Positions 680 through 20,113 of a stretch of 20,745 nucleotides of DNA are shown one piece after another. Below the pieces are notes generated by a model. It saw nothing but the letters and a program-made list of their open reading frames with translations. It made no database searches and had not been told where the DNA came from. The DNA is taken from IMG/VR virus record IMGVR_UViG_3300043438_001962, one strand, 5' to 3'. This DNA is from a virus (lineage: Duplodnaviria > Heunggongvirae > Uroviricota > Caudoviricetes). Made by a program: the position numbers and the translations under genes. Position 1 is the first letter of the stretch. Every line of letters starts with the position of its first letter.

Positions 680-3600
680 TGGCTTGTAGTTTATCATATG
701 TATTAACGAGTTTATCGGGAGATTGTACTAATTCTAATTTAGGTGGTTTTAGTATTGATATAACTGGAACCGCACCGGATTATAGTATTCAGTGGGTTAA
801 TCCTGCTTTAGGGACTATTGTATTAGGTGTCGGAGTTACAGGTTATACCGCGACTACATTGTCCGCGGGAACATATTCATTTAACATTCTTGATTCATGT
901 TCACCCACTATGAGTTCATTGCCGGTGAATATTAACATATCTAGTGGTACATGTGCAAGTATTGTTGGAATATCTAACACGACGTGTAATGACAATAATG
1001 GGTCAATAACAGGACAAACGTCTAATCTTTATGGTATAAGTACGTTTAGTTTGTATAATACCTTAACAGGTTTTATTACTTCAGGCGCATCATTTACCAA
1101 TAATTATATTTTTAATAATTTATCTCCGGGTATATACTATGTTAATGCTGACGATGGTGGTGGATGTAGTGGTCAGAGTGAAACAACTATTATTCAACCT
1201 TCGACAAATATTACGTGGGGATTTTATACTGTAATGGATTCCGGATGTGCTAATGTTGATTCGGGGAAAATATATGTAACAGGTCTTACCGGAACACCAC
1301 CATTTACTTATTTATGGTCTAATGGAGGGACAGACGATTTTATTACAGGATTGACTGCGGGTAGTTATTCTGTTCTTATTACTGATAGTTTAGGGTGTAC
1401 CCTATCTCAAACAGCAACAGTTACTGAAGTTGAACCATTAGGTTTTGGGTCGTTTACCGCCATACCACCAACATGTTTTAATAATGATGGTCAAGTGACT
1501 CTTGTAATTACAGGAGGGACTGGACCATATTATTATTCAGCATCGACAGGTGTTATAGAGGTTTCTTTTAGTTCATCTCAAACATTTTATAATATTGGTG
1601 GTGGACCATTTGCTGTTGAAGTTACTGACGCAGCTTTATGTAAAATAACTCCAACAACAACAATTATTCCACCAAACGGGTTTAATATCGTAAGTGTAAC
1701 GACAACTAATTCAAATTGTGGTAATAGTGATGGTAAAATAGATATTCAGGTAAGTGGTGGTGCAGTTCCTTTTACTTATACTTTAACAGATTCTTTAGGT
1801 AATAGTATTATTGAACCTACTGATTTTAGAAGTTGGATTTTTTCTAATTTAGCGACGGGGACATATACTTTAACTATTTCTGATAATGGAGGTTGTACTT
1901 ATGTTAGTCCACCTATCACCATAAATAATATTCCTTTATTTACGTTTACTGCAGATACTACAGATACAATATGTAATTTAAATAATGGTTATGTAATGAT
2001 TACAGTATCAGGTGGTACACCGCCTTACACATATACTGTTGGGGGTGAATTTTCTTATGACTCTATCCAAACACCATTAAGTGCATATACTTTTATTGAT
2101 TTATATTCCGGAGATTATTCGTTAGAAATAACAGAATCAACTCCTGGTATTATTTGTAAACAAACAAGTAGTTTTATGATTAACCCATCAAACAACGTTG
2201 ATTTTATGTTATCAGGTACTGATGCTAACAATGGTAATGATGGTACAGTTTCAGCATATATTACAAGTGGAACACCTCCATTCACATTATTATGGAGTAA
2301 TAACGTAAATGGTCAAACAGGGTATTATTTAAGTAATTTAAGTGCCGGAACATACAGTTTACAAATCACGGATAGTGAAGCGTGTGTTAAAATTAGAGAG
2401 GTAACAATAGATGGGTTTGACTCTATCTCATCATTTCAAACATTTAATATTTGTGATAGTGAATTTGAAAACATTGGGGAATTAGTTAAAAAAGGTCCTA
2501 AAGAAATGTTGAATGAAGGTTATTATGATTTAACATCAGGATATACAAATTGTTTACTTAATCAAGCAATTTTTAATATAGTTGCAACTATTGGTGATGT
2601 AACAGAAACTTCAGAGTTTTATACAAGTTATGCTTTAAATGATTTTCCAACAGATAATGAATATTTTGACGCTTTAGTCGCGTTATTAGAAACTTTTGAC
2701 CAAGTCGCTCAAGTTAACATTGACCCATTAAACAACGGAATTCAAATAATTGCTAAATGTCAAGAACAATATTTAGTGACAACTGATGTTACTGTTGATA
2801 TGTTTATTGAATATAATATTTCATGTCAATATTGTAGTTTACCGCCAACACAAACTCCAACACAAACTCCAACACAAACTCCAACACCAACTCAAACATT
2901 AACTCAAACTCCAACACCAACTCAAACTCTTACATCAACTGCTGGATTAACACCAACTCCGACTCCTACTCAAACATTAACACAAACATTAACACCAACA
3001 CCAACTCAAACACCAACATTAACGCCAACTCAAACTCAAACATTAACACCAACTCAAACACCTACATCAACTATGACACCAACTCCTAGTTCAAAACAAT
3101 TATGGTATTTATATACATCATGTGAAGTTGATGTTAATACTGAGGGACCGGCCTACTTAATTTTACAACCTATATTAGTAAATCCTTTATTAGGTGTTGG
3201 TGACGGATTTACTTTTACTGATGAAAATGGTAAGGTAACGTGTTGGATATTAAGAGAAATTTATAATGGACAACCAACAAACTTACCACCACAATTTAAT
3301 GTTCAAATTTGGAACACTAATTATTTTACAACAATTGGTAATGGTATTTACGATTCACAAAATGGTGCTGTTGATGCTTGTGGATTATGCGAGAAAGATA
3401 TTGAATTAATTTTAGAACCAACAAATAATTTCCTTATTAGTGTTACAAAAGATGATTCGCAAATCATAGATGTACAACCACCGTTCTACCTATATGATAA
3501 TACATATAATTTCCCTGTAGGGGTCTTAAATCCTATGTATGGTACACATAACGGTATTAACAATGAAACTATATTTATTACGATTCAATCAATTAATGAA

Positions 3601-3768
3601 TCAAATACAAATATTTGTATTTCATTAATCGTTAATGGTTCTGTAGCAGCGTCACAAATAGGGACATTCTCAAGTGGGGTTTTATTTATAGATGTTTCAT
3701 TTACGGGTGTAACAATTTTACCAACAGATACTTTAGAAATTTTTGTGACTGCAGGTGATTGTCAATAA
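679..3768 (+). CDS. 1029-aa putative virion surface/fibre protein: about 7 SprB-like Ig repeats, a ~140-aa Cys-flanked domain, a Pro/Thr linker and C-terminal domains
   Basis: Repeats of about 80 aa carry C-x-x-x-x-G-x-I and G-G-T-x-P-(Y/F)-x-Y-x-W motifs ([61 protein letters not shown]), typical of SprB repeats. A TPTQ/TPTP tract lies at 2842-3090. Translation is coupled to the upstream gene. Confidence 0.7.
2842..3090 (+). repeat. Pro/Thr/Gln low-complexity tract (TPTQ/TPTP repeats)
   Basis: Three perfect copies of CCAACACAAACT at 2845-2880 are followed by degenerate CCAAC-rich units, encoding about 80 aa of mostly P/T/Q/L. Confidence 0.95.
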
Positions 3769-3804
3769 TAAAAAACCCCCTCGTTAAAAGGGGGTTATTT
3801 TTTT
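3769..3804. terminator. Bidirectional rho-independent terminator
   Basis: A perfect 8-bp stem AACCCCCT (3774-3781) / AGGGGGTT (3789-3796) with a 7-nt loop has an A-tract on the left and a T7 tract (3798-3804) on the right. It lies between the stop codons of two convergent genes. Confidence 0.9.
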
Positions 3805-4402
3805 ACCATATTTTTTCTTGTTTCATATGACCTATAACACAACAGTAAGCGTCTGTTTGGTCAAAATTTTCTTTTTTCAGAGTATTGTTTCTTGTGTATA
3901 ACCAAGTGATTTGAGGTTCTCTTTTGGCAATTAAATCCCATATAATCATTTTCTTGTCAATGTCTTTAGGAAGTCCTCCGAATAGTACGTATTTACCTTT
4001 ATCGTTTAATTGAGTTAATTCCGGAAAGGCAAACTTACGAGAATTGTATGTTGATATAAAGTTAGGTACAACACCTAATACGTCATATATTTCTTTTGTG
4101 ACTAAAGTATTGAATCTTAATAAAGTTTGAACAGTGTAAACATTATTTGAGTTTAATAAAGGTTCTTCAATAATCACTTTAGTAATCCCCATATCTTTAT
4201 ATTCTAAAAGTTTAGTTCTAAAGATTTGACCCTTTAAAAGTAATTCTTTTATTTTATTTTCTTCTTTCGGTTTTGGTATGGGTGATATATGAGTTAATTC
4301 AAGTAGTTGTTGACTTTGTATATCAAATAACGCCCAACCAATTGTTTTTGTACTCACATCTAATCCTAAAACTTTAGGACTTTCTTTAAGTGTTTTTTTC
4401 AT
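3803..4402 (-). CDS. ruvC: RuvC-like (RNase H fold) Holliday junction resolvase
   Basis: It has the N-terminal VLGLDVSTKTIGWALFD motif (catalytic D), IIEEP (catalytic E) and C-terminal DQTDAY (D-x-x-D-A), and is 199 aa long. Confidence 0.8.
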   Translation of the reverse strand: MKKTLKESPKVLGLDVSTKTIGWALFDIQSQQLLELTHISPIPKPKEENKIKELLLKGQIFRTKLLEYKDMGITKVIIEEPLLNSNNVYTVQTLLRFNTLVTKEIYDVLGVVPNFISTYNSRKFAFPELTQLNDKGKYVLFGGLPKDIDKKMIIWDLIAKREPQITWLYTRNNTLKKENFDQTDAYCCVIGHMKQEKIW

Positions 4403-4408
4403 AATTTA

Positions 4409-6898
4409 TTAGAAATCAAATTTAACCAAAAACTGTTGAATCCCTTGTCTTAACACAGGAGATTGTAGCTTTGATACAATCATAAGATTCATTTCGTTAT
4501 CGTAAAGCCCAATTTCAGTAATATATGAACTTGTTCCTTTAGTCCATGTAGGATTTGAGGTCGATTGAAACTCCGCTTGACCAAGATTTATCTTATATTT
4601 CATTTCATAGATAGTTGCTTCAATATCAGTTTCTAATGAACCATAGAAATAATATTCATCACCAAAATTTAATGAAGGTGTGGTTGTATTACCTGACACT
4701 AATGGAATATAATCATTTAAATTGTAATCATCAGCAGCTGCGTAATTTTCTTCAGTAATGGTAAATGTTGTACCTGTTAAACTATCTACGGTTAAATATC
4801 CATTGATAGTAGTTGCACTTATTTGTGAAGTAAAATCAATGATTTTCCAATCATCCGGGTTAGGTCTACCTGTACCAATTACTTTTTGACAAATAACTTG
4901 GAATGTGTCCGCATAAAACCCTGTAATTAAGTCACAGGAAGGACACAGAGTCGTTGTTGTTGTTGTTGTGGTAGTTGTGGTTGGAATTAACGTTGGTTGG
5001 TTTAAACAAGGGAATTCAGCTCCAAATCTAATTGAAACGTTTTGTTCGGTTAAATTACCACAAGAAATGTTTGGCCCTTGAATTTTAGTATAATAATTAC
5101 AATGTAATGAATTAGTGAAAATATCGGTATTACTAAATCTATAAGTTACATACATATATTCAGTGTCCGCAGTTAATATACCATTAACTGTTGGTTGATT
5201 ATTTTCAACAACACAAGTGTTTGGTGTAGTTAACCCAACTTTAGGTGCCGGTAATGTCCAGTTACGGTTTGACTTGTAAGACATTGCGGCAATAATCTCT
5301 TCATCATCAATAATGATAATTTGTGAATCAGGGAATACTTTACCAACTCTATTTGGTAGACCAGTACTCTCGTTAACATTAGTGTCCCATAAATTATAAT
5401 ATCTAATACCCGGGTCATTCATACCTAAATTTTTAGTTGATAGAATATATTGGTCTTTAAATATTTGAGGAAATGTGTCTGAGTCAAATCCTGGAGGGTC
5501 AACCCAAAAAGTTTGACCTTTACAACATTCAGGATTTTTATGCCACATTAACCACGGCAAATGTAATCTAAAGTTACGAGCTTCACCTGTAGTATCTGAA
5601 GGGTTATTAGAGTCGTAAGGTTCAAAGGCAAATTTCTCACCATAGAAGAAATCAATTGATTGATTAGTATAGTGAATAATAGCAATAGCTTTTTGCTCAC
5701 TTGGTTGAACAACAACTTGTTCATCAAATGAATTATAATAATAAACAACACTTGTATCGGTTTGTCCACTATCTGACATATATCCAAAATATTCTTTACT
5801 ACCTAAATAAGACGCTGAACCAAAATATTGATAACCTTTATAAAATGAATCATACAATCCAGCAGGATTTTCCGACCAAGGAATATTCATATTCCAAATC
5901 TTAACATCTGATTCATCCGTACTACATAAAGATTCAAAATTAATAACATTTTGATTCCAATGTGAGTTAGGTGTAATACTATCGTATAATGTTGTCATAT
6001 TTGGTGGGTATACTAATACTCTAGCGAAACATCCACTTGAAAAGTTTGAAAAGTCAGGTGTTGGTCTGTCTAATGTATATAAACCATTACAGATATCTAT
6101 AATTTTATAAGTTAATATTGGGTAACAACTACTCATTGACATCTCACAATCAGGTGGTGTCGGAGTTGGAGGTAAAGGTGTAGTACAACAAGTTGAAGAA
6201 GGTGTTGGTGTTGGACCTTGGTCACATATGTTAGCACTCTTAGTTATTGTTGGTGTAGGTGTTGGAGTTGGATTGGCCTCGTAAGTTGGTGTAGGTGTAG
6301 GTGTTGAAGTTGGTGTAGGTGTTGGGTTAGGGTCACAATAACAATTGTATTCACCTTGACCGTCGTAATATATTGTAACAAAATCACCAATCATTGGTAA
6401 TCTTACAATATTTGAATTACACCCTGAATACACTAATTGAATAACACTACCACCTGTTAATGTAGACATATCTACAAGATAGTTAGAGTTAATTGTGTAT
6501 TGGCTATTTGTTAACGCACTCCAATTAATTGTAGTTGCTGTTGTATTACCTGTAAAAAATCCTCTCATAGCGGCTCTATTATAAACCGCTTGAGGTACTG
6601 ATGCCATATAAGGAATTCCGTATGTGTTACCGGTTATTCCATCAACATAATACGGGTATTTAACATTTTGTTTGTTTGTTTCAGGTGCAGCAGTTGAATT
6701 CTGAGCATTAAATGCGGGTTCAAGAATATTTGTTGTGAATTGATTATAAGGTGTTCCTGTTAATGTATTGTAAGAAACCTCACTATCACCTACTTGAAAA
6801 TAAGAGATATTAAAACTACCTTGTGATAGTTTTAACCTTGCGGTATCGGTTAACCTTGTGCTAAGTAAACCTTGTGTATTTTTTAATATGTATCCCAT
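4409..6898 (-). CDS. 829-aa baseplate/tail-collar-like structural protein with large internal Cys- and Pro/Thr-rich region
   Basis: The N-terminal LTDTARLKLSQGSFNISYFQVGDSE and C-terminal YITEIGLYDNEMNLMIVSKLQSPVLR resemble the two ends of the phage tail-collar (DUF3751 / P2 gpH N-terminal) domain. There are internal PT tracts and a poly-Thr run. Confidence 0.55.
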   Translation of the reverse strand: MGYILKNTQGLLSTRLTDTARLKLSQGSFNISYFQVGDSEVSYNTLTGTPYNQFTTNILEPAFNAQNSTAAPETNKQNVKYPYYVDGITGNTYGIPYMASVPQAVYNRAAMRGFFTGNTTATTINWSALTNSQYTINSNYLVDMSTLTGGSVIQLVYSGCNSNIVRLPMIGDFVTIYYDGQGEYNCYCDPNPTPTPTSTPTPTPTYEANPTPTPTPTITKSANICDQGPTPTPSSTCCTTPLPPTPTPPDCEMSMSSCYPILTYKIIDICNGLYTLDRPTPDFSNFSSGCFARVLVYPPNMTTLYDSITPNSHWNQNVINFESLCSTDESDVKIWNMNIPWSENPAGLYDSFYKGYQYFGSASYLGSKEYFGYMSDSGQTDTSVVYYYNSFDEQVVVQPSEQKAIAIIHYTNQSIDFFYGEKFAFEPYDSNNPSDTTGEARNFRLHLPWLMWHKNPECCKGQTFWVDPPGFDSDTFPQIFKDQYILSTKNLGMNDPGIRYYNLWDTNVNESTGLPNRVGKVFPDSQIIIIDDEEIIAAMSYKSNRNWTLPAPKVGLTTPNTCVVENNQPTVNGILTADTEYMYVTYRFSNTDIFTNSLHCNYYTKIQGPNISCGNLTEQNVSIRFGAEFPCLNQPTLIPTTTTTTTTTTTLCPSCDLITGFYADTFQVICQKVIGTGRPNPDDWKIIDFTSQISATTINGYLTVDSLTGTTFTITEENYAAADDYNLNDYIPLVSGNTTTPSLNFGDEYYFYGSLETDIEATIYEMKYKINLGQAEFQSTSNPTWTKGTSSYITEIGLYDNEMNLMIVSKLQSPVLRQGIQQFLVKFDF
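4951..4983 (-). repeat. Poly-Thr trinucleotide run (PTTTTTTTTT-LCPSC)
   Basis: (GTT)5 at 4953-4967 on the + strand is extended by degenerate Thr codons. Confidence 0.9.
6160..6332 (-). repeat. Pro/Thr tract flanked by Cys residues
   Basis: It encodes CYCDPNPTPTPTSTPTPTPTYEANPTPTPTPT...PTPTPSSTCCTTPLPPTPTPPDC. Confidence 0.9.
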
Positions 6899-6902
6899 GT
6901 GA

Positions 6903-6910
6903 TATAAATA
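6903..6910 (-). promoter_or_regulatory. TATTTATA motif, candidate phage late promoter / initiation element
   Basis: On the - strand the sequence reads TATTTATA-TCAC-ATG, 4 nt before the start at 6898. Confidence 0.5.
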
Positions 6911-6928
6911 TTCTTATTTTTTTTATTT

Positions 6929-7954
6929 TTAATTGACACTTATTATTTCTACTCTACAACATCCACAACCACTAATACTTGCGTTACCAATTGAGAATGA
7001 ATCCTGACTTGATGTGTAAGTACAAGGGGTTAATGGGTCGTTTTGTGTTATTGTCGTTGTAGTATTTAATATGATACTATCTGAAGATGTAAAACTTAAA
7101 GAATTCCAACTTTCAGTATAATAATCTAAATAATTTGTTAAATTCTGACATCCTTGTAATGGATTATAATCAGTGTTAGTTGTTGTTAAACCACTTGTTG
7201 TTAGTGGAATAGAAACATTATTTTTAGATAACACAGTATTAGTAGTTAAAGTTGCTGTGGTAGCGCTTGGAGAATAGTAAAAAGTATTATAATGTAATAT
7301 GTTAAAATTAACTATTACTCCACTTGGTAATTCAGGAATAACACTAAAAGTTGTTGTGTATTGTTTAGTTAGTGTTGTATTTGTATTAACCGGATTTGTT
7401 ATTGTTGTATTTAATTTTAATTGATATAATGTCGGAGGTGCCGGTTCATTTAATTTTACATTATTACTATTTGTGTTACCACTTGAATCAATCACCTTAA
7501 CACTATACATACCCGAACATAAATTATTAAAAATTGGTGAATTAAAATAAGTGACACCATTATCTATTGAATATTGGTATGGAGGATAACCTCCCGAAAG
7601 ATTAATCATTAAATTACCATCACAAGTACATATTGGTTGATTAACACTAAAAGTTAATGAGTTAATTCCTAATGGATTACAAACACCTTCGTTAGCATAA
7701 ACAGTTCCGTTAGCTCCTAATATATACCAAGAGTTAAGTGGGGGTACAGAAGATGGTAAGGAAGAAAATACTGAATAAGTTAGATTACCACCATTCAATT
7801 TCCATCTACTTAATGAAACGTCCCAATTAATTGAATAAGTGTAATCATCAGACACCCATTGATTATATCCATTATCATCTAATCCATTTGGATTAAAATG
7901 AATTTGTAAGTTATTAATACTTATATTTAGACAAAAATTATATTCTATTTCCAT
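6929..7954 (-). CDS. 341-aa putative virion protein with one SprB-like Ig repeat
   Basis: The segment CDGNLMINLSGGYPPYQYSIDNG...FNNLCSGMYSVKVIDS is a typical SprB-type repeat. The protein is Thr/Asn-rich and ends in CGCC. The start is 1 nt after the upstream stop. Confidence 0.65.
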   Translation of the reverse strand: MEIEYNFCLNISINNLQIHFNPNGLDDNGYNQWVSDDYTYSINWDVSLSRWKLNGGNLTYSVFSSLPSSVPPLNSWYILGANGTVYANEGVCNPLGINSLTFSVNQPICTCDGNLMINLSGGYPPYQYSIDNGVTYFNSPIFNNLCSGMYSVKVIDSSGNTNSNNVKLNEPAPPTLYQLKLNTTITNPVNTNTTLTKQYTTTFSVIPELPSGVIVNFNILHYNTFYYSPSATTATLTTNTVLSKNNVSIPLTTSGLTTTNTDYNPLQGCQNLTNYLDYYTESWNSLSFTSSDSIILNTTTTITQNDPLTPCTYTSSQDSFSIGNASISGCGCCRVEIISVN

Positions 7955-11275: not shown

Positions 11276-11283
11276 TATTTATA
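11276..11283 (+). promoter_or_regulatory. TATTTATA motif, candidate late promoter
   Basis: The sequence reads TATTTATA-TAAT-ATG, the same 4-nt spacing as at 6898. Confidence 0.5.
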
Positions 11284-11287
11284 TAAT

Positions 11288-11467
11288 ATGAAACTGATTA
11301 GAACAATATCGAATTTGGTAACTGAATCTAAAAAAATTTACGAAGAAGCCTGTGAAAAAGGTGTCAACGAAAAAGAATTAGATAGATTAGAAAAAAACTA
11401 CAACGAATCCTTAAAACTTTTAAGGATTTATGAGGGTTTGAATAAAACCAAACAAGAAAATATTTAA
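11288..11467 (+). CDS. 59-aa charged, probably helical/coiled-coil hypothetical protein (not in the ORF track)
   Basis: My translation is MKLIRTISNLVTESKKIYEEACEKGVNEKELDRLEKNYNESLKLLRIYEGLNKTKQENI*. It fills the gap between 11209 and 11464, has the TATTTATA motif upstream, and its stop overlaps the stop of the convergent gene (TTAA at 11464-11467). Confidence 0.7.
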   Translation: MKLIRTISNLVTESKKIYEEACEKGVNEKELDRLEKNYNESLKLLRIYEGLNKTKQENI

Positions 11468-14400
11468 GTCCAAGAATATTTTATTTCAACTCCACTAATA
11501 TGGACTGTCCATCTCATAGTATCTCCAACAGCACCGGTTACTTGTATATCTAAAGCATCATTTGTATCATCCGCAGATATTGTAACGTCATACAAAGCGT
11601 TATCTTCAACATCTGTCCCTATGGTTGATACCGGACTCGCACCAATTAATGAAGTTGTTCCACCTACATTTTTAATGGCAACTTTTCTTATATAGTGAGC
11701 TGCTGATGTACCACCACTAGTAATTCCTGCAATATTAATAGTAACAAACATTGCGGTTTCGTTTAAAACTGATATTCTTTGTGATGAACCATCTAAAAAA
11801 ATGTTAACAGTTGTTACACCTGTTGTTGTATTTCTACCTAATAAATCTATTTGTTGTGTCTCACCTGTACCGGTAAATGGTGTCCAAGTTCCATTTGCAA
11901 ACGACCTTTGTCCAAAACGAGGAGCACAAGCTCTATTACCGCCAATAATAGATGAATTTTCTCCATACGCTCTATTAAGAAAACCTCCCGTTACTGTTGA
12001 AGATGCTCCAGATGCGACATTTAGTTGACCACCACCAATTGTTGAATTTGCCCCCGATGCGGTATTTTCTCTACCACCCCCAACAGTTGAATAATTATCA
12101 CTTGCTGAATTACAAAAACCTCCGGCAATCGTTGCACGATTTCCATTTACAGTATTATCCCATCCACCACCTATTGTTGAAAAAAATCCTGAAACGATAT
12201 TACTTATACCACCACCAATAACTGAGGTACACCCTGATGCGGTGTTACAAAACCCACCACCTATTGTTGAATCAACACCTGAGGCGATATTACTTCTACC
12301 ACCACCAATAAATGAGTTAGTACCTTGTGTTGTGTTAAAACCACCACCGGCAATTGTTGAACGATAACCGTTAGCACAATTACCTCGTCCACCACCAATA
12401 GAAGAATCTCTACATACTGAATTATTCTCTCGACCTCCACCAATAAATGAATATTCTCCTAATAACGTATTACATCTACCACCACCTATTGTTGAATCTA
12501 TTCCACCTGATGTATTACATCTACCACCGGCAATTGTTGAAGTAGAACCTGATGATGTATTATTTGAACCACCACCAATAAATGAATAAACTCCTGATGC
12601 CGTATTACAATTACCACCACCAACAACAGTTGAAGTTGATGATGATATGTTACCACCACCACTACCTACAAAAGAACGTAAACCTGATGCCGTATTACCA
12701 TTACCACCACCTATTGTTGAAAAACAACATGATGCCGTGTTTTTAAAACCACCACCAACAGTTGACCAACAACCTGAAGATAAATTACAACTACCACCAC
12801 CAATAAATGAAGTACATCCTGATGCGGTGTTACAATATCCACCACCCACAAATGAAAAACAATTACTTGAAGTGTTTCCTGTACCTCCACCTACAAATGA
12901 AAAATATTCGGAAGAGGTGTTTTTACAACCACCACCAACAAATGATGACTTACATGAGAGATGACAGACACCTGTACCAACAAATGAACCACTTCGTGCA
13001 CAATTACAAAATCCATTTGATATGATTGAATAACTACCACATGCGGTGTTTTTACGGCCTCCTATGATAGCGGAACTAGTACCATAAACTATGTTACAAC
13101 AACCACCACCAATAAATGACTGATAACCGTATCCAACACAATTAGATTGTCCCCCAACTATAGATGAATATTTAGTATAATATGAAGATATATAATTAGA
13201 TTTACCACCACCAATTGTTGAAAACACACTTGATACTGTATTTCCTGAACCACCAACAATTGACGAACAATTACCGATAGCACAATTAGTAGTACCACCA
13301 CCGACAAATGATAATGCTGATGTCACATTTTTACAACCTCCGGCAATTGTTGAGGTATTACCTGATGCTATATTACAACATCCAGCGCCAATAAATGAAT
13401 AAGCTCCTGAAGATGTGTTACTTAGTCCACCGGCAATTGTTGACCTAAAACATGAAGATGTGTTAGATTGTCCACCACCAACTGTTGAATACTGAGACGA
13501 TGCTATGTTCTTACACCCACCTCCAACAAATGAACAATTTCCTGACGCGGTATTATTTCTACCACCGGATATTGTTGAATCTATTCCTCCTGATGTATTA
13601 TTTCTACCTCCGGCAATTGTTGAAGTTTGCCCTGTGGCGACATTTAAACTTCCACCACCAATGAATGAAAAATTACCTGAAACTGTGTTTTGATTACCAC
13701 CACCAATTGTTGATGAGGTACCAGATACTATATTACCAACACCACCACCAATTGTTGTACAATAGTCTAAAGCGTTATTATTTATACCTCCCCCAATAAA
13801 TGTATAATTACAAGAGACTGTATTATTTCTACCACCGGCTATTGTTGAATAATTACCATTAGATTCGTTACTAAAACCCCCACCAATTGTTGAATGAGGA
13901 CCTGAAGCAATATTACTACTACCACCACCAATAAATGAACATGCCCCCGATGCTGTGTTTTTATAACCACCACCAATTGTTGAAGTACTACCAGAAACAG
14001 TATTACCACAACCACCACCAATAAATGAATGAGTTCCTCCACTAATAATGTTTTGATTTCCCCCAACTACAACTGAAAAATCTGTTGTTCCCGAGTTTGA
14101 TGACCCACCTAATACTGCACTACAATTTCCCGATGCAAGATTACTAACACCACATCTAACAGATGAGTTAACACCTGTTCCGGTTATAATTACGGCTGAT
14201 GAACCACCACCTCCACCACCGGCAATAGGTACTAAAAGTCCATTTGTGCTAACTCCAACATAACAACCACTACAAGTACTCATAGAGTCAATAATCATGT
14301 CGTTAACAAATGTTGTACAATTTCTATTTGCAGTTATATTACTACCAACAATCATAGCACATGTGCAACCACTAGTATTATTAGACGAACCACCTAATAT

Positions 14401-16638
14401 TGATGAATAATTACCGGATGATATATTACCTCTACCACCACCAATAAATGAATGGGTACTTGTTATAGTATTTTGACTACCACCAACAATACTTGAAGTG
14501 GCACCTGATACGGTATTACCAATACCTCCCCCAATAAATCCTTGACAAAATCCACCTGAACTTGTTGTAAAATTTCGTAAAAGTGGTTGTGACGAAGGGA
14601 ACGCTCCCATTGCGGCAGTTGCTCCAGTAACATATAAGTTTGTATATGGTGATGAATATGTTTGACCTGTAATAACTACGTTTCTACTACATCCAAAATT
14701 GTCATATGTTAATAAAAGGTCGTTTACACTAAATGATGATAATTGATTCCCGTACAATTGTATTGTACAAGTGTTTGCCGAATATGATGATATTACTTGA
14801 GAATTACCTATAAAGTTTAATGCTCCACCACCAATCATTGAATGACTAGCAAATGTTACATTAACGCTTCCGCCTCCAATAACACCAAAGTCTTCTACGA
14901 CTCTATTATTATTACCACTTACAATACCACCACCATAAGAACATTGACCTAAACAGTTTCCACATCCACCTAAAATTGCTGCTCTAACTCCATATGTTTT
15001 ATTATTTAATCCTCCACCAATAACACCATCTTCACCAACGCCTGTTGTACCCGATATCATATTACTTCTACCACCACCAATAAATCCAAATTCGTTACAT
15101 ATTGTATTACTAATACCACCGGCAATTACTGAATTTGATGGGTTCAGTGTATTACTAGTAATACGATTGTTAAACCCACCACCTATTGAAGAAGATGTTC
15201 CACAAATAAAATTAAATCTACCACCGGCAATTGTTGAGTAATTACAACATGAGGTATTAAAACAACCTCCCCCAACTGTTGAACAACCACCTACTGAACA
15301 GTTAAGATAACCACCACCAATTGTTGAACAATTTCCTGATGCGGTATTTCGACGACCACCACCAATAAATGATGTAGCTCCTGATGAGATATTACAACAA
15401 CCACCACCAATCGTACCATATACTGTATACACAATATTTGATTTTCCACCACCAATGAATGAATAAGGACTACAGGTAATATTACATCTACCTCCAGTAA
15501 TTGTTGATTTATCTCCACAAACAGTATTTTGCATTCCACCACCAATGGTTGAACTGTCACAATAAGATTTGTTATTCGCTCCACCACCAACAGTTGAGTT
15601 ATTCGCTAAGGCATAGTTGCAATAACCACCGGCAATAGTTGCATCACCACTATTTGCTCCTGGACCAATAACACATGCTAAATTATATCCACCACCACCA
15701 ATTGTATTTCTTGGCCCAATAACAACATTACAACAACCACCGATTATTGTTGAAGTATTTCCTGATATTCTGTTATAATCACCCCCACCAATGAATGATG
15801 TTGTCCCACCACTAATTATGTTTTTAGACCCCCCAACTACAACTGAAGAATCTGTTGTTGCTGAGTTTGAAATACCACCACCAATAAATGAATTGTTTCC
15901 TGATGCGGTATTTTGTTGACCACCAACTATTGTTGAGGTTATATTTGTTGATGAGTTTAATATACCACCACCAATAAATGAATTGTCTCCTAATGCTTGA
16001 TTTTCTTGACCACCACCTACGGTTGAACCACCGCATGAGGTATTACAAAGTCCCCCACCAATAAAAGAATAATTATCTGATAAGGTATTCTTACTACCAC
16101 CACCAATTGTACTTCCTATTGAATTATTGCAAATAATATTACAATAACCTCCAGCAATTGTAGAACTTCGTGTTACATTTTTACCAACACCCACAAAAAT
16201 ACTATTATAAAGACCACCACCAATTGTTGATGTACCACCTGAAACACTATTACAAAAACCACCACTTATAGTTGAATCATTATTTGATACCGTATTACAA
16301 CGACCACCTCCAATAAACGAATGTGTTCCTCCACTAACTACATTTTGTCGTCCACCAACAACCATTGAATAGTTTGTAGTTGCTGAGTTTGAATATCCAC
16401 CTAAAGCACCGGAATTATCTCCTGATGCAAGATTATTAACATCTCTTCTAATTGATGAGTTAACACCTGTACCACTTACAATTACAACAAATGGTGAACC
16501 ACTAATTGCTTCATCGATTGTTGATTTATATGATGAACCTGCAGGATTTTGAGTCGGGTTATTAGTATCAACAATGTGAATTAATGTTTGACTTGTTGTA
16601 AACCCTGATGGTGAATATGTTCTTTGAGTTAAAATCAT
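11464..16638 (-). CDS. 1724-aa long tail fibre / adhesin-like protein with 15-residue Gly-rich repeats and a C-terminal globular domain
   Basis: Dozens of (S/F)-x-I-G-G-G-x-x-N-x-A-S-G units occur with a 15-aa period. The N-terminus is short and anchor-like (LIHIVD...GSSYKSTI), and the last ~150 aa are non-repetitive and beta-rich. Confidence 0.7.
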   Translation of the reverse strand: MILTQRTYSPSGFTTSQTLIHIVDTNNPTQNPAGSSYKSTIDEAISGSPFVVIVSGTGVNSSIRRDVNNLASGDNSGALGGYSNSATTNYSMVVGGRQNVVSGGTHSFIGGGRCNTVSNNDSTISGGFCNSVSGGTSTIGGGLYNSIFVGVGKNVTRSSTIAGGYCNIICNNSIGSTIGGGSKNTLSDNYSFIGGGLCNTSCGGSTVGGGQENQALGDNSFIGGGILNSSTNITSTIVGGQQNTASGNNSFIGGGISNSATTDSSVVVGGSKNIISGGTTSFIGGGDYNRISGNTSTIIGGCCNVVIGPRNTIGGGGYNLACVIGPGANSGDATIAGGYCNYALANNSTVGGGANNKSYCDSSTIGGGMQNTVCGDKSTITGGRCNITCSPYSFIGGGKSNIVYTVYGTIGGGCCNISSGATSFIGGGRRNTASGNCSTIGGGYLNCSVGGCSTVGGGCFNTSCCNYSTIAGGRFNFICGTSSSIGGGFNNRITSNTLNPSNSVIAGGISNTICNEFGFIGGGRSNMISGTTGVGEDGVIGGGLNNKTYGVRAAILGGCGNCLGQCSYGGGIVSGNNNRVVEDFGVIGGGSVNVTFASHSMIGGGALNFIGNSQVISSYSANTCTIQLYGNQLSSFSVNDLLLTYDNFGCSRNVVITGQTYSSPYTNLYVTGATAAMGAFPSSQPLLRNFTTSSGGFCQGFIGGGIGNTVSGATSSIVGGSQNTITSTHSFIGGGRGNISSGNYSSILGGSSNNTSGCTCAMIVGSNITANRNCTTFVNDMIIDSMSTCSGCYVGVSTNGLLVPIAGGGGGGSSAVIITGTGVNSSVRCGVSNLASGNCSAVLGGSSNSGTTDFSVVVGGNQNIISGGTHSFIGGGCGNTVSGSTSTIGGGYKNTASGACSFIGGGSSNIASGPHSTIGGGFSNESNGNYSTIAGGRNNTVSCNYTFIGGGINNNALDYCTTIGGGVGNIVSGTSSTIGGGNQNTVSGNFSFIGGGSLNVATGQTSTIAGGRNNTSGGIDSTISGGRNNTASGNCSFVGGGCKNIASSQYSTVGGGQSNTSSCFRSTIAGGLSNTSSGAYSFIGAGCCNIASGNTSTIAGGCKNVTSALSFVGGGTTNCAIGNCSSIVGGSGNTVSSVFSTIGGGKSNYISSYYTKYSSIVGGQSNCVGYGYQSFIGGGCCNIVYGTSSAIIGGRKNTACGSYSIISNGFCNCARSGSFVGTGVCHLSCKSSFVGGGCKNTSSEYFSFVGGGTGNTSSNCFSFVGGGYCNTASGCTSFIGGGSCNLSSGCWSTVGGGFKNTASCCFSTIGGGNGNTASGLRSFVGSGGGNISSSTSTVVGGGNCNTASGVYSFIGGGSNNTSSGSTSTIAGGRCNTSGGIDSTIGGGRCNTLLGEYSFIGGGRENNSVCRDSSIGGGRGNCANGYRSTIAGGGFNTTQGTNSFIGGGRSNIASGVDSTIGGGFCNTASGCTSVIGGGISNIVSGFFSTIGGGWDNTVNGNRATIAGGFCNSASDNYSTVGGGRENTASGANSTIGGGQLNVASGASSTVTGGFLNRAYGENSSIIGGNRACAPRFGQRSFANGTWTPFTGTGETQQIDLLGRNTTTGVTTVNIFLDGSSQRISVLNETAMFVTINIAGITSGGTSAAHYIRKVAIKNVGGTTSLIGASPVSTIGTDVEDNALYDVTISADDTNDALDIQVTGAVGDTMRWTVHISGVEIKYSWT
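11930..16440 (-). repeat. Two arrays of degenerate 45-nt coding repeats
   Basis: CCACCACCAATTGTTGA / CCACCACCAATAAATGA recur on the + strand at roughly 45-nt intervals. They are interrupted by an insert at about 14545-14810 and a neck/linker at about 14190-14400. Confidence 0.9.
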
Positions 16639-16655
16639 TGGTTTTTGTTTTATAT

Positions 16656-16663
16656 TATAAATA
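16656..16663 (-). promoter_or_regulatory. TATTTATA motif, candidate late promoter
   Basis: It sits in the 30-nt intergenic gap, 17 nt before the start at 16638. Confidence 0.5.
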
Positions 16664-16668
16664 GTTCG

Positions 16669-16974: not shown

Positions 16975-16977
16975 ATA

Positions 16978-19197
16978 TTAAAAAGTATATAATGGGTTTG
17001 TTGGTAATTGAAGAACACCATTTATTACTGTTGCAACGACATCACTAAATACACTATTAGAAACACCATTAACAATAGGTGATGCTAAAATTCTAAAAGA
17101 TTTAACATTATTTGGGTCTGTTAATTCAACTCTATAATGATAGACGGAAACAAATTGTTGAATACCTCCACCGCTCGATGTTCCGATTGATGTAAAATTA
17201 TTACAAGTTAATGCGGATAACGAAGGTATTTGTGTATAAGGTGAACTACTACCTGAAAAAGGTACTGTTGAGTTAAGATAATTATTTAGCCAATAAAACC
17301 CATGGAGAGTTGATGCACTAACAACGGTTGGTGGATTTTCTACAAAATATAAAGATGCCCCAAAAGGTCTAACATATTTAGAACCAGTATTGGTTGTGAA
17401 ATCTTCAATATTTGTTACTCCGGTTGAACTAACATTAACATTTCTAATTATATCGTTAATGATGGTTTGACAACTAATATCACAAGGGTCAAACGGTGGT
17501 AAACCGTCAGATATTGTTGGCATTGTGATGTTTAAAGTATAAACCCCTCCTGTATCTCCGGTTGTTACTATACTAGAATAATGTATATCATATTTTACAA
17601 CAGTTGTTCCATCTCCACAAGGATTAGATTGGGGTTGTTTTGGTATATATAACTCAAAATATCTATAATAATTTGGGTCGGCAGGATTTGATGGTGTTCC
17701 ATAATAAGGTGACAACAAATCATAAGATGATTTATAATGTATTAAATCACTTAAACTACTAAATTCCATTTTAATTACTCCTTGTCCTGATGGACCAGTG
17801 TTTTCTTTTTTAAATTTAATTGTATTTGTGTTAGGGGGTGAACAAGTTGGTGTTGTAGTAAAGTTATAATTTGCAGAACAGGTTGTAGAGTCCCAATCTA
17901 ATGTGTTAGGGAAGTTCCTATTAAGTAGTCCTGTACTATTATTGGTGCTTACCTCAGAGAACTGTGTCGTATTGATAGCTGTTATAGTTGTTACTTGATA
18001 TTTGTAAATATCGTTATCAGTTATAGCACTTGAGGTACAACCTGATAAATTAAGATTAACTATAATTGATGAACAAGAACCTGTAAAACCAGTAATAGAT
18101 GATGATTGTATTTTATATGGTGTATTTAAATAATCGTATAAACATAAATCACAGTCAAAGGTGTCCATACAAGTAAAATAAAAATCCCATTCCGTTTGTG
18201 GGTTAATTTGATTTGGAATTACTTCTAAAATTAAATAATCTCCGGGACTTCTTGTTAATGATGTTAATGATGTTACTTTTGAAAAATAATTTGAAGTATC
18301 GGCTGATTTTGGAAAAGTTAATAAATTAATAAATGAAGTTCCAAGGTCACCTCCAACTACCCAATACTCTAAAATAATTGGGTCTGTATATGCTGAACCA
18401 TAAAACGTAATTTTAAGTGAGTCCGGTATATTAAACCCTCGAAATTTCCAAGAAAAATAATCGGTTGTTAAATCTAATTCAAATGTTGATTGTAAAGTTA
18501 ATGGAGTTACACCTGCGGCTGCTCCAGCAAAATTAACCCTATGAGTATAATTGTTCGGTAACGGTACTGTTCCATTGTCACAAGTAAAAGGTTGAACATT
18601 AACTGTTGTTGCGTTAAAACATTCTAACTCGGCTTGAATATAACCAGTTCCACCTGTTTGAGAATAATTAAGTCCATTTAGTTTAACTTTATCAATTACA
18701 GGTATATAAGTTCCTGCTGGCTGCATTGGAGAATTAATACCTACTAATGGATGTGTAAAATCTCTTGGTAAAAAATTTATATCTTGACCAAAACCTGATG
18801 TGAAGGCAATATTTGTTGAAGAATTTGGTCCGTACCAAATTATTCTATAATCTGTAATGTCATTTTCACAACTACCGGTTAATTCTCCTGCGACAATTAA
18901 ACCAATAGTATTAGTTTGATATGAATCAAAGGATAACTCACAAGTTGTACATAAATCGTTAGATAATAAATCAAGTGTTGCACAACATTTTGATAATATG
19001 TCTATTATTCTAATTGTGGTAGTTAAATCGGGTACATTACCCATAACATACGGACATAACGGACCAAATAAACTATCATAACTTACGTTAGTTTGAAAAG
19101 GTGATGTATAATTATCAACGTTTGAATATATGTTAAATGTTCCACCTAAAAGGGTAGTTCCTAAATCGGTTAAACAAGTTGAAGCTGAAAACGGCAT
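16978..19197 (-). CDS. 739-aa beta-rich, Cys-containing hypothetical protein, probably a virion component
   Basis: It is a long ORF tightly packed in the structural operon, rich in Thr/Ser/Asn/Cys. I recognise no catalytic motif. Confidence 0.65.
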   Translation of the reverse strand: MPFSASTCLTDLGTTLLGGTFNIYSNVDNYTSPFQTNVSYDSLFGPLCPYVMGNVPDLTTTIRIIDILSKCCATLDLLSNDLCTTCELSFDSYQTNTIGLIVAGELTGSCENDITDYRIIWYGPNSSTNIAFTSGFGQDINFLPRDFTHPLVGINSPMQPAGTYIPVIDKVKLNGLNYSQTGGTGYIQAELECFNATTVNVQPFTCDNGTVPLPNNYTHRVNFAGAAAGVTPLTLQSTFELDLTTDYFSWKFRGFNIPDSLKITFYGSAYTDPIILEYWVVGGDLGTSFINLLTFPKSADTSNYFSKVTSLTSLTRSPGDYLILEVIPNQINPQTEWDFYFTCMDTFDCDLCLYDYLNTPYKIQSSSITGFTGSCSSIIVNLNLSGCTSSAITDNDIYKYQVTTITAINTTQFSEVSTNNSTGLLNRNFPNTLDWDSTTCSANYNFTTTPTCSPPNTNTIKFKKENTGPSGQGVIKMEFSSLSDLIHYKSSYDLLSPYYGTPSNPADPNYYRYFELYIPKQPQSNPCGDGTTVVKYDIHYSSIVTTGDTGGVYTLNITMPTISDGLPPFDPCDISCQTIINDIIRNVNVSSTGVTNIEDFTTNTGSKYVRPFGASLYFVENPPTVVSASTLHGFYWLNNYLNSTVPFSGSSSPYTQIPSLSALTCNNFTSIGTSSGGGIQQFVSVYHYRVELTDPNNVKSFRILASPIVNGVSNSVFSDVVATVINGVLQLPTNPLYTF

Positions 19198-19207
19198 ATT
19201 TTAATTT

Positions 19208-20113
19208 TTAAGTTTTATTATATAAGTAACCCTCTAATCCACAATCAATACACGGAGATGGAATTCCTGAAGATGTTGGTGTAGGAGTTGGAGTTGGTGT
19301 AGGTATAATTGATTCTGAACATAAAATACAATCCGCACCTATTTGACTTCCATAAGGACCAATTAGTAATGTAATATCATCAATACCGATTGTGTTATTA
19401 TTAACCCCAATATATCCAACACATATTACTGTCCCATTAACGTTAGCTTGATAAACTTGAAAATTTTCAATTGGGATATTTCCTGGTGTAACTAATTGAT
19501 TTGTGGTATAATACATCGTACCGTCATAACAATTTTGGAATTGATAACTATAAGGACATACAATACTATCATCAATTGTATTGAAAGTTACCCCTTGTTC
19601 AAAAGTACAAGTACGAGCAATTTGTGCCGATGGTGTCGGGGTCATTGTAGGTGTTGGTGTTGGAGTGGAAGTAACACTTTGAATTGTTGCACTTATAACT
19701 ACATTACAAAATTTAGTTGGTGTAGGTGTTGGTGTAGGTGTTAATGTAGTTGTACTAGTTACAGTTGGTGTTGGAGTTGTTTCAAAATCACAATCAAATA
19801 TTGCTGAGAAATTTAAATTTGCACAATTTAATGTTGGTGTGGGAGTTGGTGTTGGACACGCTCCAATAGAAAAATAAACATCATCTAAATCCGGACACGG
19901 GTTGAAACAAGGTGATTGACCCGATAAAAGACAAGACCCGTCTAAAACTGTTGATAAACACCATTGAGTTGACCCTGTGTTATAATAAATGGATAATCCA
20001 TTTGTTTGACCGGTCCAATATAGTTGAGAATTCCATGTCCCTGCACTAAAGTATAGGTCGTTAAATGTTGGGTAACCAGTGTTTGAAAGGCAATATGTAG
20101 AACTACACGGCAT
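19208..20113 (-). CDS. 301-aa Cys-rich modular protein with four Pro/Thr tracts (putative virion surface protein)
   Basis: Small Cys-flanked modules alternate with PTPTPT linkers. The start is 1 nt after the upstream stop. Confidence 0.7.
   Translation of the reverse strand: MPCSSTYCLSNTGYPTFNDLYFSAGTWNSQLYWTGQTNGLSIYYNTGSTQWCLSTVLDGSCLLSGQSPCFNPCPDLDDVYFSIGACPTPTPTPTLNCANLNFSAIFDCDFETTPTPTVTSTTTLTPTPTPTPTKFCNVVISATIQSVTSTPTPTPTMTPTPSAQIARTCTFEQGVTFNTIDDSIVCPYSYQFQNCYDGTMYYTTNQLVTPGNIPIENFQVYQANVNGTVICVGYIGVNNNTIGIDDITLLIGPYGSQIGADCILCSESIIPTPTPTPTPTSSGIPSPCIDCGLEGYLYNKT

What the first reader, a model, noticed from the sequence alone, without database searches (positions are those of the whole stretch)
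2842..20113. Candidate phage-encoded virion O-glycosylation system (enzyme plus Pro/Thr-rich substrates in one locus)
Seen in the sequence: a putative protein O-glycosyltransferase sits inside a structural cluster, directly upstream of a PT-stalk protein, with three more PT-tract genes and a Ser/Gly-rich fibre nearby. Established: the closest recognisable families modify Pro-rich repetitive peptides, and host Bacteroidota O-glycosylation acts outside the cytoplasm, so it would not normally reach assembling virions. Inference: the phage glycosylates its own stalks, giving a mucin- or extensin-like coat. Such a coat could add rigidity, protease resistance, adhesion or shielding. If the acceptor is hydroxyproline, a prolyl 4-hydroxylase (2OG-Fe(II)) should be encoded elsewhere in the genome.
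Basis: inference. Interest (0 to 1): 0.9.

Follow-up and report, generated by a model that had tools for sequence, protein, structure and literature searches.

The report
Phage sugar-transferase among Pro-Thr fibre genes
An uncultured giant T4-like phage encodes, among its tail-fibre genes, a soluble sugar-adding enzyme of an unnamed family; in unrelated phages that family occurs only where capsid or tail proteins carry threonine-rich tracts, so the phage probably sugar-coats its own Pro/Thr stalks, though no experiment has shown it.

Summary
ORF 10229-11209(-) is a confident GT-A glycosyltransferase: AF2 pLDDT 97.8, invariant D100-x-D102 and H264, no membrane segment, no Pfam family, PHROG 4417. 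It lies 20 nt upstream of a protein with a Pro/Thr (PT) stalk. Three more PT-tract genes and a Gly/Ser beta-roll fibre are nearby.

The nearest folds are plant and algal peptidyl-Ser galactosyltransferase and hydroxyproline arabinosyltransferases, then glycogenin and Skp1 Gat1 (GT8-like).

The main evidence is comparative. All 8 cultured phages examined that carry a homolog have poly-Thr runs in capsid, tail-tube, protease or neighbouring (in MA9V-3 unannotated) genes, and the enzyme gene often lies directly next to them. None of 8 relatives without the enzyme has such runs, and three of these comparisons are matched within a clade. In 67 aquatic relatives, PT genes cluster around the enzyme gene, including in rearranged contexts.

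The hydroxyproline idea is not supported: no prolyl hydroxylase in three near-complete relatives. A Bacteroidota host is unproven.

A 318-kb relative has a second cluster: PT protein, GT60-like transferase, GT25-like transferase.

The scan has already reached this reading on other DNA (Firmicutes phages and freshwater giant phages). I found no paper on this family. There is no biochemical proof, and no enzyme-less contrast exists inside the aquatic clade.

The parts
10229..11209 (-). Soluble GT-A glycosyltransferase, PHROG 4417, no Pfam family. Predicted metal/nucleotide-sugar site: D100-S-D102 plus H264.
   Evidence: phrog_4417 E 1.7e-68. AF2 pLDDT 97.8. Folds: glycogenin Z 15.1, Skp1 Gat1 Z 14.7; SGT1/HPAT TM 0.55-0.63. 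D100, D102 and H264 invariant in 54 sequences. Highest Kyte-Doolittle 19-mer 0.83, so no TM segment.
7956..10208 (-). Protein D: N-terminal domain with an SprB repeat, a ~100-aa PT stalk (nt 9378-9674), then LRR-like repeats. Starts 20 nt after the GT stop. Predicted substrate.
6929..7954 (-). Protein C: SprB-repeat protein in the same co-directional gene string. No PT tract.
4409..6898 (-). Protein B (829 aa): PT tract nt 6149-6334 and a Thr11 run nt 4949-4981. Its ~830-aa orthologs in the aquatic clade nearly always carry PT. Predicted substrate.
3803..4402 (-). RuvC-like resolvase gene. It is the last gene of the GT-D-C-B string and is conserved at this position in relatives. Not part of the glycosylation idea, but it shows the block is not purely structural.
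   Evidence: phrog_159 E 1e-4; a ~200-aa ORF at this position in most loci.
679..3768 (+). Protein A (1029 aa): five SprB repeats, then a PT stalk nt 2833-3096, then a C-terminal domain. Convergent with the GT string. Predicted substrate.
   Evidence: PF13573 E 4e-25.
19208..20113 (-). Protein F (301 aa): three PT tracts (nt 19253-19312, 19622-19684, 19712-19759), Cys-rich. Predicted substrate.
11464..16638 (-). Gly/Ser-rich beta-roll fibre (1724 aa, 15-residue repeat). No PT tract. A neighbour of the GT, not a predicted substrate.
16978..19197 (-). Protein E (739 aa): no family hit and no PT tract by my criterion. Conserved ~730-aa neighbour in the clade.
11276..11283 (-). TATAAATA (the T4 late-promoter word) 67 nt upstream of the GT start. 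Suggestive only.
   Evidence: 8 matches in the window against 5.7 expected, so not enriched.

Best explanation
ORF 10229-11209 encodes a cytoplasmic, metal-dependent GT-A glycosyltransferase. I propose that it transfers a sugar from a nucleotide-sugar onto Thr (perhaps Ser) hydroxyls in extended Thr/Pro-rich tracts of the phage's own late proteins. Here those are the PT stalks of proteins D, B, A and F. The transfer would happen before or during assembly, so that fibre-like appendages carry mucin-like glycosylated stalks.

Shown: the fold, the conserved DxD...H site, the lack of a membrane anchor, the gene order, and the family-wide co-variation with Thr-rich virion tracts.

Inferred: that the acceptor is protein; that it is Thr rather than Hyp; that this enzyme starts the glycan; that the window's PT proteins are virion parts; and any benefit (rigidity, protease resistance, adhesion, shielding).

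In this phage lineage other transferases (GT60-like, GT25-like, GT2) may extend the glycan or start glycans of their own.
For: 1. Enzyme. AF2 pLDDT 97.8. GT-A fold matches: glycogenin Z 15.1, Skp1 alpha-GalT Gat1 Z 14.7, LgtC Z 14.2, the PBCV-1 capsid-glycosylating A64R Z 11.2. The best matches to predicted folds are peptide-directed GTs, SGT1 and HPAT. D100, D102 and H264 are invariant. There is no TM segment.

2. Independent lineages. In phiFL1A, phiCTP1, TPWB06 and RQ1 the homolog directly follows the major tail (tube) gene. In iLp84, R3.3 and 9183 it follows head genes. In MA9V-3 it follows three poly-Thr/Ser genes.

3. Co-variation. 8 of 8 enzyme-positive phages have [TS]6+ runs in the genes around the enzyme gene (annotated structural genes in 7; unannotated neighbours in MA9V-3), against 0 of 8 enzyme-negative relatives. 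Absence and presence were checked on whole records with positive controls. One-sided hypergeometric p is about 8e-5, uncorrected for phylogeny. Three contrasts are matched: R3.3 against phiJL-1 and ATCC8014 (same genus); phiFL1A against streptococcal prophages; RQ1 against 6ec and CF9 (tail protein 88% identical).

4. Likely the initiating enzyme. Those small phages have no GT60 or GT2 gene. In two-domain homologs this domain is the constant N-terminal part, joined to variable second GT domains: GT2, GT6 and GT7C, and GT60 in P0150 and P0168. P0171, with O-FucT and GT60 domains, carries it last.

5. This clade. Of 67 distinct aquatic loci, 63 have PT genes within 10 kb, concentrated at gene positions -1 to +5. 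In the non-syntenic loci L065 and L077 the GT is again followed directly by a PT-rich gene. GT, D, C and B form a tight co-directional string with gaps of 30 nt or less.

6. Second cluster. In relative G001 a second PT protein is followed directly by GT60-like (E 9e-72) and GT25-like genes.
Against: - There is no biochemical or glycoproteomic evidence for any member of the family.
- The family also occurs in what looks like a cellular glycan-biosynthesis cluster, with an epimerase, a sulfotransferase and a nucleotidyl-sugar transferase. The acceptor could therefore be a sugar rather than a peptide.
- In the aquatic clade the link to PT tracts may simply reflect location in the hypervariable fibre region, which collects accessory genes (PMC7029224). 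I found no enzyme-less relative there to serve as a contrast.
- The window's tracts are Pro-interrupted internal linkers, not the nearly pure poly-Thr C-terminal tails of the Gram-positive phages.
- PT linkers are common in bacterial proteins and are not always glycosylated (my own knowledge).
- None of the PT proteins is shown to be a virion component.
- The late-promoter word upstream of the GT is not enriched.
Confidence: 0.6

Rival explanations
1. The enzyme does glycosylate virion proteins, but as an extending transferase. It adds a sugar to a glycan that another enzyme starts: the GT60-like polypeptide GlcNAc-transferase found in every relative, or a host enzyme. This would resemble the way Gat1 caps the Skp1 glycan.
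For: Skp1 Gat1 (6mw8) is the second-best solved-structure match, Z 14.7. PF11397 is present in 5 of 5 aquatic relatives and 0 of 14 control genomes. It is fused to this family in P0150, P0168 and P0171.
Against: The small Gram-positive phages and MA9V-3 carry this GT with poly-Thr tracts but have no GT60 or GT2 gene. The best predicted-fold matches are initiating peptide GTs. In G001 the GT60 gene lies about 73 kb from this GT, next to its own PT protein.
Confidence: 0.15
2. The enzyme modifies a host envelope glycan (LPS O-chain, capsule or teichoic acid) during infection, for example to block superinfection. The PT tracts are ordinary unglycosylated linkers. This is how glycosyltransferases in the fibre region of pelagimyophages were interpreted.
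For: PMC7029224 reports GT8-type transferases in the tail-fibre hypervariable region and proposes O-chain modification. The fold resembles the LPS enzymes LgtC and WbbM. A family member lies in a cellular glycan cluster.
Against: This does not predict the 8-of-8 against 0-of-8 co-variation with poly-Thr tails on capsid and tail-tube proteins. It does not predict insertion inside late structural operons, directly after the tail-tube gene. The enzyme is soluble with no membrane segment, which is weak evidence by itself because cytoplasmic LPS and teichoic-acid transferases are often soluble too.
Confidence: 0.12
3. The enzyme glycosylates phage DNA (hydroxymethylated bases), as T-even glucosyltransferases and TET-associated GT-A enzymes do.
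For: The phage is T4-like. GT-A enzymes that modify DNA exist in phages (bioRxiv 10.1101/2023.12.21.572611 and PMC13326640, seen only as titles and abstracts).
Against: Homologs sit in the head and tail operons of 36-40-kb siphophages, next to Thr-tailed proteins. No DNA-modifying GT appears among the top fold matches. I made no targeted search of those genomes for base-hypermodification genes.
Confidence: 0.03

Closest known systems
Mycobacteriophage virion glycosylation (Che8, Corndog, Myrna; Freeman et al. 2023, Cell Host Microbe; known to me through PMC12363180, original not held)
   Same: Phage-encoded cytoplasmic glycosyltransferases modify the phage's own capsid and tail-tube proteins. 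The Gram-positive homolog-bearing phages likewise have tails on both capsid and tail-tube proteins.
   Different: A different enzyme family: no mycobacteriophage among the 77 tblastn hits. Here the presumed acceptors are internal Pro/Thr stalks of fibre-like proteins in a T4-like jumbo phage. Nothing has been shown experimentally.
Plant/algal peptidyl-Ser alpha-galactosyltransferase SGT1/SERGT1 (CAZy GT96) and hydroxyproline O-arabinosyltransferases HPAT/RDN/PLENTY (GT95)
   Same: These are the best predicted-fold matches (TM 0.55-0.63, E down to 5e-11). They are GT-A enzymes that start O-glycans on Pro-rich repetitive proteins (extensins).
   Different: Only 14-16% identity and no shared Pfam model. 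The plant enzymes are Golgi membrane-anchored, while this one is soluble. No P4H accompanies it, so Thr rather than Hyp or Ser-Hyp4 is the likely acceptor.
GT8-type retaining GT-A enzymes: glycogenin, Skp1 Gat1 (6mw8), LgtC, the UGGT catalytic domain
   Same: The best solved-structure matches (Z 14-15, rmsd 3.3-4.1 A over 214-244 residues). A DxD plus a downstream His is conserved. Glycogenin, Gat1 and UGGT act on proteins or protein-bound glycans in a soluble form.
   Different: No match to PF01501 or any other Pfam GT model for any of 54 members. The motif spacing after the His differs.
Chlorovirus PBCV-1 A64R and other giant-virus capsid glycosylation enzymes
   Same: A virus-encoded, cytoplasmic GT-A that glycosylates a virion protein independently of host machinery. 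Fold match Z 11.2.
   Different: A eukaryotic virus; the PBCV-1 Vp54 glycans are atypical N-linked (my own knowledge). This is only a generic GT-A resemblance.
Xanthomonas jumbo phage XacN1 (Yoshikawa et al. 2018, PMC5852040)
   Same: A jumbo myophage of a Gram-negative host, with two encoded glycosyltransferases and at least two glycoproteins detected in virions.
   Different: No PHROG 4417 homolog was detected in Xanthomonas phages. The link between enzyme and substrate was not established there either.

Membership tests
GT-A fold nucleotide-sugar glycosyltransferases | Rossmann-like alpha/beta/alpha GT-A fold | tested here: met
   AF2 pLDDT 97.8. 333 PDB matches with E<=1e-3; every listed match is a GT-A-type enzyme, nearly all glycosyltransferases (a few nucleotidyltransferases low). 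Z up to 15.1.
GT-A fold nucleotide-sugar glycosyltransferases | DxD metal/nucleotide-sugar motif after the fourth strand, plus a C-terminal His ligand | tested here: met
   D100, D102 and H264 are invariant in 54 sequences of 30-71% identity. Their spatial equivalence to the glycogenin ligands is inferred, not superposed.
PHROG 4417 (unknown function) | Full-length match to the profile | tested here: met
   E 1.7e-68, residues 1-317 on profile positions 1-291 of 293.
CAZy GT8 (Pfam PF01501) | Sequence match to the family model | tested here: not met
   No Pfam GT hit for the query or for any of 54 homologs at E<=0.05. The resemblance is in fold only.
CAZy GT95/GT96 (HPAT, SGT1) | Sequence-level homology to plant/algal members | tested here: inconclusive
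   Fold TM 0.55-0.63 with 14-16% identity.
CAZy GT95/GT96 (HPAT, SGT1) | Type II membrane anchor / Golgi location | tested here: not met
   Residues 2-8 form the first core strand. Highest Kyte-Doolittle 19-mer is 0.83.
CAZy GT95 (HPAT) | Hydroxyproline acceptor, which requires a prolyl 4-hydroxylase | tested here: not met
   PF13640 is absent from the three relatives that are 93-100% complete, and present in 1 of 5 overall. A host P4H cannot be excluded.
Phage virion O-glycosylation systems (mycobacteriophage type) | Phage-encoded GT together with Ser/Thr-rich acceptor tracts on virion proteins | tested here: met
   Window: the GT plus four PT-tract genes. Family: 8 of 8 against 0 of 8.
Phage virion O-glycosylation systems (mycobacteriophage type) | Glycan demonstrated on virion proteins and dependent on the GT | not testable with these tools
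   Needs glycoproteomics or a glycostain on virions, and a GT knockout.

The most novel reading that the evidence does not exclude
PHROG 4417 is a widespread, uncharacterised family of peptide-directed Thr O-glycosyltransferases (814 clusters at 50% identity), structurally nearest to the plant extensin-glycosylating enzymes. In freshwater jumbo T4-like phages it would work alongside GT60-like and GT25-like transferases as a cytoplasmic, virus-encoded mucin-type O-glycosylation pathway that turns Pro/Thr linkers of fibre proteins into glycosylated stalks. In Gram-positive siphophages the same enzyme would decorate poly-Thr tails of capsid and tail tube, some of them added by programmed frameshifting.
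Probability: 0.45. Interest if true: 0.85.

Novelty: new variant of a known kind. Interest (0 to 1): 0.7.

Why it matters
Virion glycosylation by phage-encoded enzymes has been demonstrated only for mycobacteriophages. XacN1 shows glycoproteins, but they are not tied to an enzyme.

If this unnamed family does the same job, glycosylated virions would be common. Homologs occur in phages of lactic acid bacteria, enterococci, staphylococci, clostridia and Bacteroidota, and in abundant freshwater jumbo phages.

That would bear on:
- phage therapy, through antibody recognition and clearance;
- dairy phage biology;
- adhesion of phages to mucus or particles;
- the annotation of thousands of 'hypothetical' genes.

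It would also give glyco-engineering a soluble bacterial-system enzyme with a simple poly-Thr or PT tag. The hypothesis is directly testable in cultured pairs that differ by the enzyme, such as RQ1 against 6ec, or R3.3 against phiJL-1.

Tried and rejected
- Sequence-family searches of the GT were all empty or noise: Pfam, NCBIfam, PADLOC, and PDB by sequence and by profile. The only PDB 'hit' was a TALE repeat at E 0.012, which I rejected as low-complexity chance.
- Protein B has no homolog in cultured phages, so no cultured contrast exists for the aquatic clade.
- P4H search: absent from near-complete relatives, so the Hyp branch was dropped.
- Thr6-coding words in G001 are not enriched over the reversed control. 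Only the TPTPTP words are.
- TATAAATA upstream of the GT is not enriched in the window, so I kept it only as a hint.
- GT homologs themselves are not Thr-rich: 1 of 150. Self-glycosylation of a built-in tract is therefore unlikely.
- Eight literature searches found no paper on this family or on poly-Thr tails paired with a GT. Freeman et al. 2023 is not held. The Jabs preprint is held only as an abstract.
- I did not run complex prediction. An enzyme-substrate pair with a disordered tract is a poor case for that test.
- Host assignment was not attempted beyond noting the SprB repeats.
Full report
**Setting.** The window is the minus strand of positions 4013-24757 of a single 40.6-kb viral contig. 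The rest of the contig carries:
- a ribonucleotide reductase C-terminus, a gp25-like and a gp6-like baseplate wedge gene, and several very large proteins without family on one side;
- a primase, an exonuclease and an SbcD-like gene on the other.

This is a fragment of a T4-like myophage. IMG/VR holds relatives of up to 318 kb. One of them, G001, is judged 100% complete and has a GT that is 94% identical.

**Observation.** A co-directional string with gaps of 30 nt or less runs on the minus strand:
- GT, 10229-11209;
- D, 7956-10208;
- C, 6929-7954;
- B, 4409-6898;
- a RuvC-like gene, 3803-4402.

Upstream on the same strand lie F (19208-20113), E (16978-19197), a 101-aa ORF, and the 1724-aa Gly/Ser fibre (11464-16638). 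A (679-3768) converges from the plus strand.

PT tracts of 60-100 residues occur in A, B, D and F. B also has a Thr11 run. The tracts are tandem arrays at the DNA level. The fibre is a 15-residue-repeat beta-roll (PF21300, E 2.6e-11) and has no PT tract.

**What the enzyme is.** No sequence library names it: Pfam, NCBIfam, PADLOC and PDB sequence searches are empty. None of 54 homologs hits a Pfam GT model. It matches PHROG 4417 ('unknown function') end to end, E 1.7e-68.

The family is large: 1374 clusters at 90% identity among the candidates scored, and 814 representatives at 50% identity with E<=1e-3.

An AlphaFold2 model built on 54 homologs has mean pLDDT 97.8.
- Against solved structures it is a GT-A transferase closest to GT8-like enzymes: glycogenin Z 15.1, Skp1 alpha-galactosyltransferase Gat1 Z 14.7, LgtC Z 14.2, UGGT catalytic domain Z 14.1. 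The chlorovirus capsid-glycosylating A64R scores Z 11.2.
- Against predicted structures, the best matches outside its own family are the plant and algal peptide O-glycosyltransferases: SGT1 (E 5e-11, TM 0.60) and HPAT/RDN1/PLENTY (TM 0.55-0.63). Several 'HPAT-like domain' clusters also match.

D100, D102 and H264 are invariant, as expected for the DxD...His metal site of such enzymes. Their spatial equivalence is inferred. Residues 2-8 are the first core strand, and no stretch is hydrophobic enough for a membrane segment. The enzyme should therefore act in the cytoplasm, where virions assemble.

**What it acts on: evidence from unrelated phages.** tblastn finds 77 cultured-phage records with a homolog of 33-37% identity. 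Most are siphophages of Lactobacillus, Enterococcus, Staphylococcus, Lactococcus and Clostridium, plus one Chryseobacterium phage. I examined eight.

| Phage | Where the GT gene sits | Thr-rich tracts seen |
|---|---|---|
| Enterococcus phiFL1A | Abuts the stop of the major tail gene | Tail protein ends in about 25 residues of nearly pure Thr/Ser; capsid protein also ends in Thr runs |
| Lactobacillus iLp84 | After a small protein that is about half Thr | Capsid and tail proteins both end in a Thr7 tag |
| Lacticaseibacillus R3.3 | After the capsid gene | Capsid and tail proteins carry Thr tags |
| Clostridium phiCTP1 | After the tail-tube gene | Tail tube and a small head protein have Thr tails |
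| Arcanobacterium TPWB06 | After the tail gene | Tail protein ends in Thr runs; an overlapping out-of-frame ORF encodes more |
| Staphylococcus RQ1 | After the tail gene | As TPWB06; the prohead protease linker also holds four Thr7 runs |
| Enterococcus 9183 | After the capsid gene | A Thr/Ser tract lies in another frame just past the capsid stop |
| Chryseobacterium MA9V-3 | After a run of three unannotated genes | Two of those three genes carry long Thr/Ser tracts |

Eight relatives lack the enzyme anywhere in their records: streptococcal prophages GBSInt4 and Javan505, Lactobacillus phiJL-1 and ATCC8014, SPP1, Staphylococcus 6ec and CF9, and Listeria LP-101 (with positive controls). None has a single [TS]6+ run in any frame of the corresponding loci.

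Three comparisons are matched within a clade:
- R3.3 against phiJL-1 and ATCC8014, all classed as Coetzeevirus.
- phiFL1A against streptococcal prophages. The tail-protein match is 57-60% identical, and the shared capsid C-terminal motif is followed by Thr runs only in phiFL1A.
- RQ1 against 6ec and CF9. The tail protein is 88% identical; the Thr tail and the Thr-rich protease linker are replaced by Ser/Asp/Glu-rich sequence; and the GT gene is missing from the same slot.

Eight of eight against none of eight gives a one-sided hypergeometric p of about 8e-5. This is not corrected for shared ancestry, so the three matched contrasts carry the weight.

A host-glycan or DNA-modifying enzyme would not be expected to appear and vanish together with Thr tails on capsid and tail-tube proteins. 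I reached this result before consulting the scan's notes. Those notes report the same pairing on several Firmicutes phages and on other freshwater giant phages.

**Initiator or extender?** The four small or medium cultured phages tested carry no GT60 or GT2 gene. In them this enzyme is probably the one that touches the peptide.

In two-domain homologs the PHROG 4417 domain is usually the N-terminal constant part, joined to a variable second GT. The second domain is GT2, GT6 or GT7C, and GT60 in P0150 and P0168; an F5/8 lectin-like domain also occurs. P0171, which has O-FucT and GT60 domains, carries the PHROG 4417 domain last. This fits 'constant initiator plus variable extender', but it is not proof.

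One such fusion (P0168) lies in what looks like a cellular glycan cluster. The family is therefore not restricted to phages, and a sugar acceptor cannot be excluded.

**This clade.**
- Eighty IMG/VR loci with 56-99% identical GTs share a conserved order: conserved baseplate-side genes, variable fibre genes, GT, a variable gene, an ~830-aa B ortholog, the ~200-aa RuvC-like gene, a convergent A-like gene, then primase and exonuclease.
- Among 67 distinct loci, 63 have at least one PT gene within 10 kb (mean 2.4). These genes sit at positions -1 to +5 relative to the GT and almost never further out.
- In two loci with different surroundings (L065, L077) the GT is again followed directly by a PT-rich gene, one with about 500 PT-tract residues.

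This is consistent with the hypothesis. It is weaker than the siphophage evidence, because the region is also the hypervariable fibre module. That module is known in pelagimyophages to collect glycosyltransferases, which were there read as host O-chain modifiers (PMC7029224). I found no clade member without the GT.

**Wider glycosylation capacity in the lineage.** In G001, TPTPTP-coding words (30 against 0 in the control) fall in six clusters:
- three around the GT;
- one in a 227-aa protein beside the large terminase;
- one at 7.6-10.4 kb;
- one in a 657-aa protein with a 91-residue PT tract.

The 657-aa PT protein is followed on the same strand by a GT60-like gene (PF11397, E 9e-72), a GT25-like gene (PF01755, E 4e-17) and two further ORFs.

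PF11397 is present in 5 of 5 relatives and in none of 14 control prokaryote genomes. By my own knowledge, GT60 holds the protist polypeptide alpha-GlcNAc transferases and the Skp1 hydroxyproline GlcNAc transferase. GT2 genes (several) and an epimerase/dehydratase (3 of 5) also occur. An earlier scan note reports an RmlB/RmlC cassette in this genome; I did not test that.

**Hydroxyproline.** PF13640 is absent from the three relatives that are 93-100% complete and present in only one of five. Together with the nearly Pro-free poly-Thr tails of the Gram-positive phages, this points to Thr as the acceptor.

**Verdict.**

| Claim | My odds |
|---|---|
| The gene is a real, soluble GT-A glycosyltransferase | about 0.95 |
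| Its family glycosylates Thr-rich tracts of phage structural proteins | about 0.75 |
| The PT stalks of A, B, D and F are its substrates in this phage | about 0.6 |

Relative to published work, this is a new variant of a known kind: virion glycosylation is known from mycobacteriophages, glycoproteins were seen in XacN1, and giant viruses glycosylate their capsids. What differs here is the enzyme family, the acceptor architecture and the host range. The scan itself has already reached this reading on other DNA. Nothing here is experimental.

Noticed in passing
L096:8700-9000 (Enterococcus phage 9183): The capsid gene stops at 8800. Another reading frame continues, without any ATG, through about 25 codons of Thr/Ser before its own stop. 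This suggests a programmed frameshift that gives some capsid subunits a poly-Thr tail, directly upstream of the GT homolog.
   Followed up: partly
L098:8620-8931 (Staph phage RQ1) and L097:8720-8926 (Arcanobacterium phage TPWB06): An ORF overlapping the 3' end of the major tail gene in another frame encodes 60-100 residues of Thr7-9 runs. It resembles the SPP1 gp17.1* frameshift extension, but with a mucin-like tract in place of an FN3 domain.
   Followed up: partly
L099 (G001:297000-307000): A second glycosylation cluster in the 318-kb relative: a 657-aa protein with a 91-residue PT tract, then GT60-like (PF11397), GT25-like (PF01755) and two unnamed ORFs on one strand.
   Followed up: partly
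L101:3248-3931 (G001:47247-47930): A 227-aa protein with a 36-residue PT tract lies directly beside the T4-type large terminase gene, far from the fibre module.
   Followed up: no
window 3803-4402 (-): A RuvC-like resolvase gene is the last gene of the GT-D-C-B string. It is conserved at that position across the aquatic clade, which is an odd place for a DNA enzyme.
   Followed up: no
window 11291-11467 (+): A 58-codon ORF on the opposite strand fills most of the 254-nt gap between the fibre gene and the GT. It is helical and charged in composition. No evidence that it is a gene.
   Followed up: no
window 12647-12964 (+): The 105-aa 'PPP' repeat ORF is the antisense reading of the fibre's GGG repeat. 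It is almost certainly not a gene.
   Followed up: partly
window 7956-9300 (-): The C-terminal 430 residues of D are LRR-like repeats of about 22 residues (SGNI..L motif) displayed beyond the PT stalk. This is an unusual candidate receptor-binding module for a phage.
   Followed up: no
L093 (JGI 3300020054 contig): A 1019-aa fusion of the PHROG 4417 domain with a GT60 domain sits beside an epimerase/dehydratase, a sulfotransferase and a nucleotidyl-sugar transferase, with amino-acid metabolism genes nearby. It looks cellular rather than phage.
   Followed up: no
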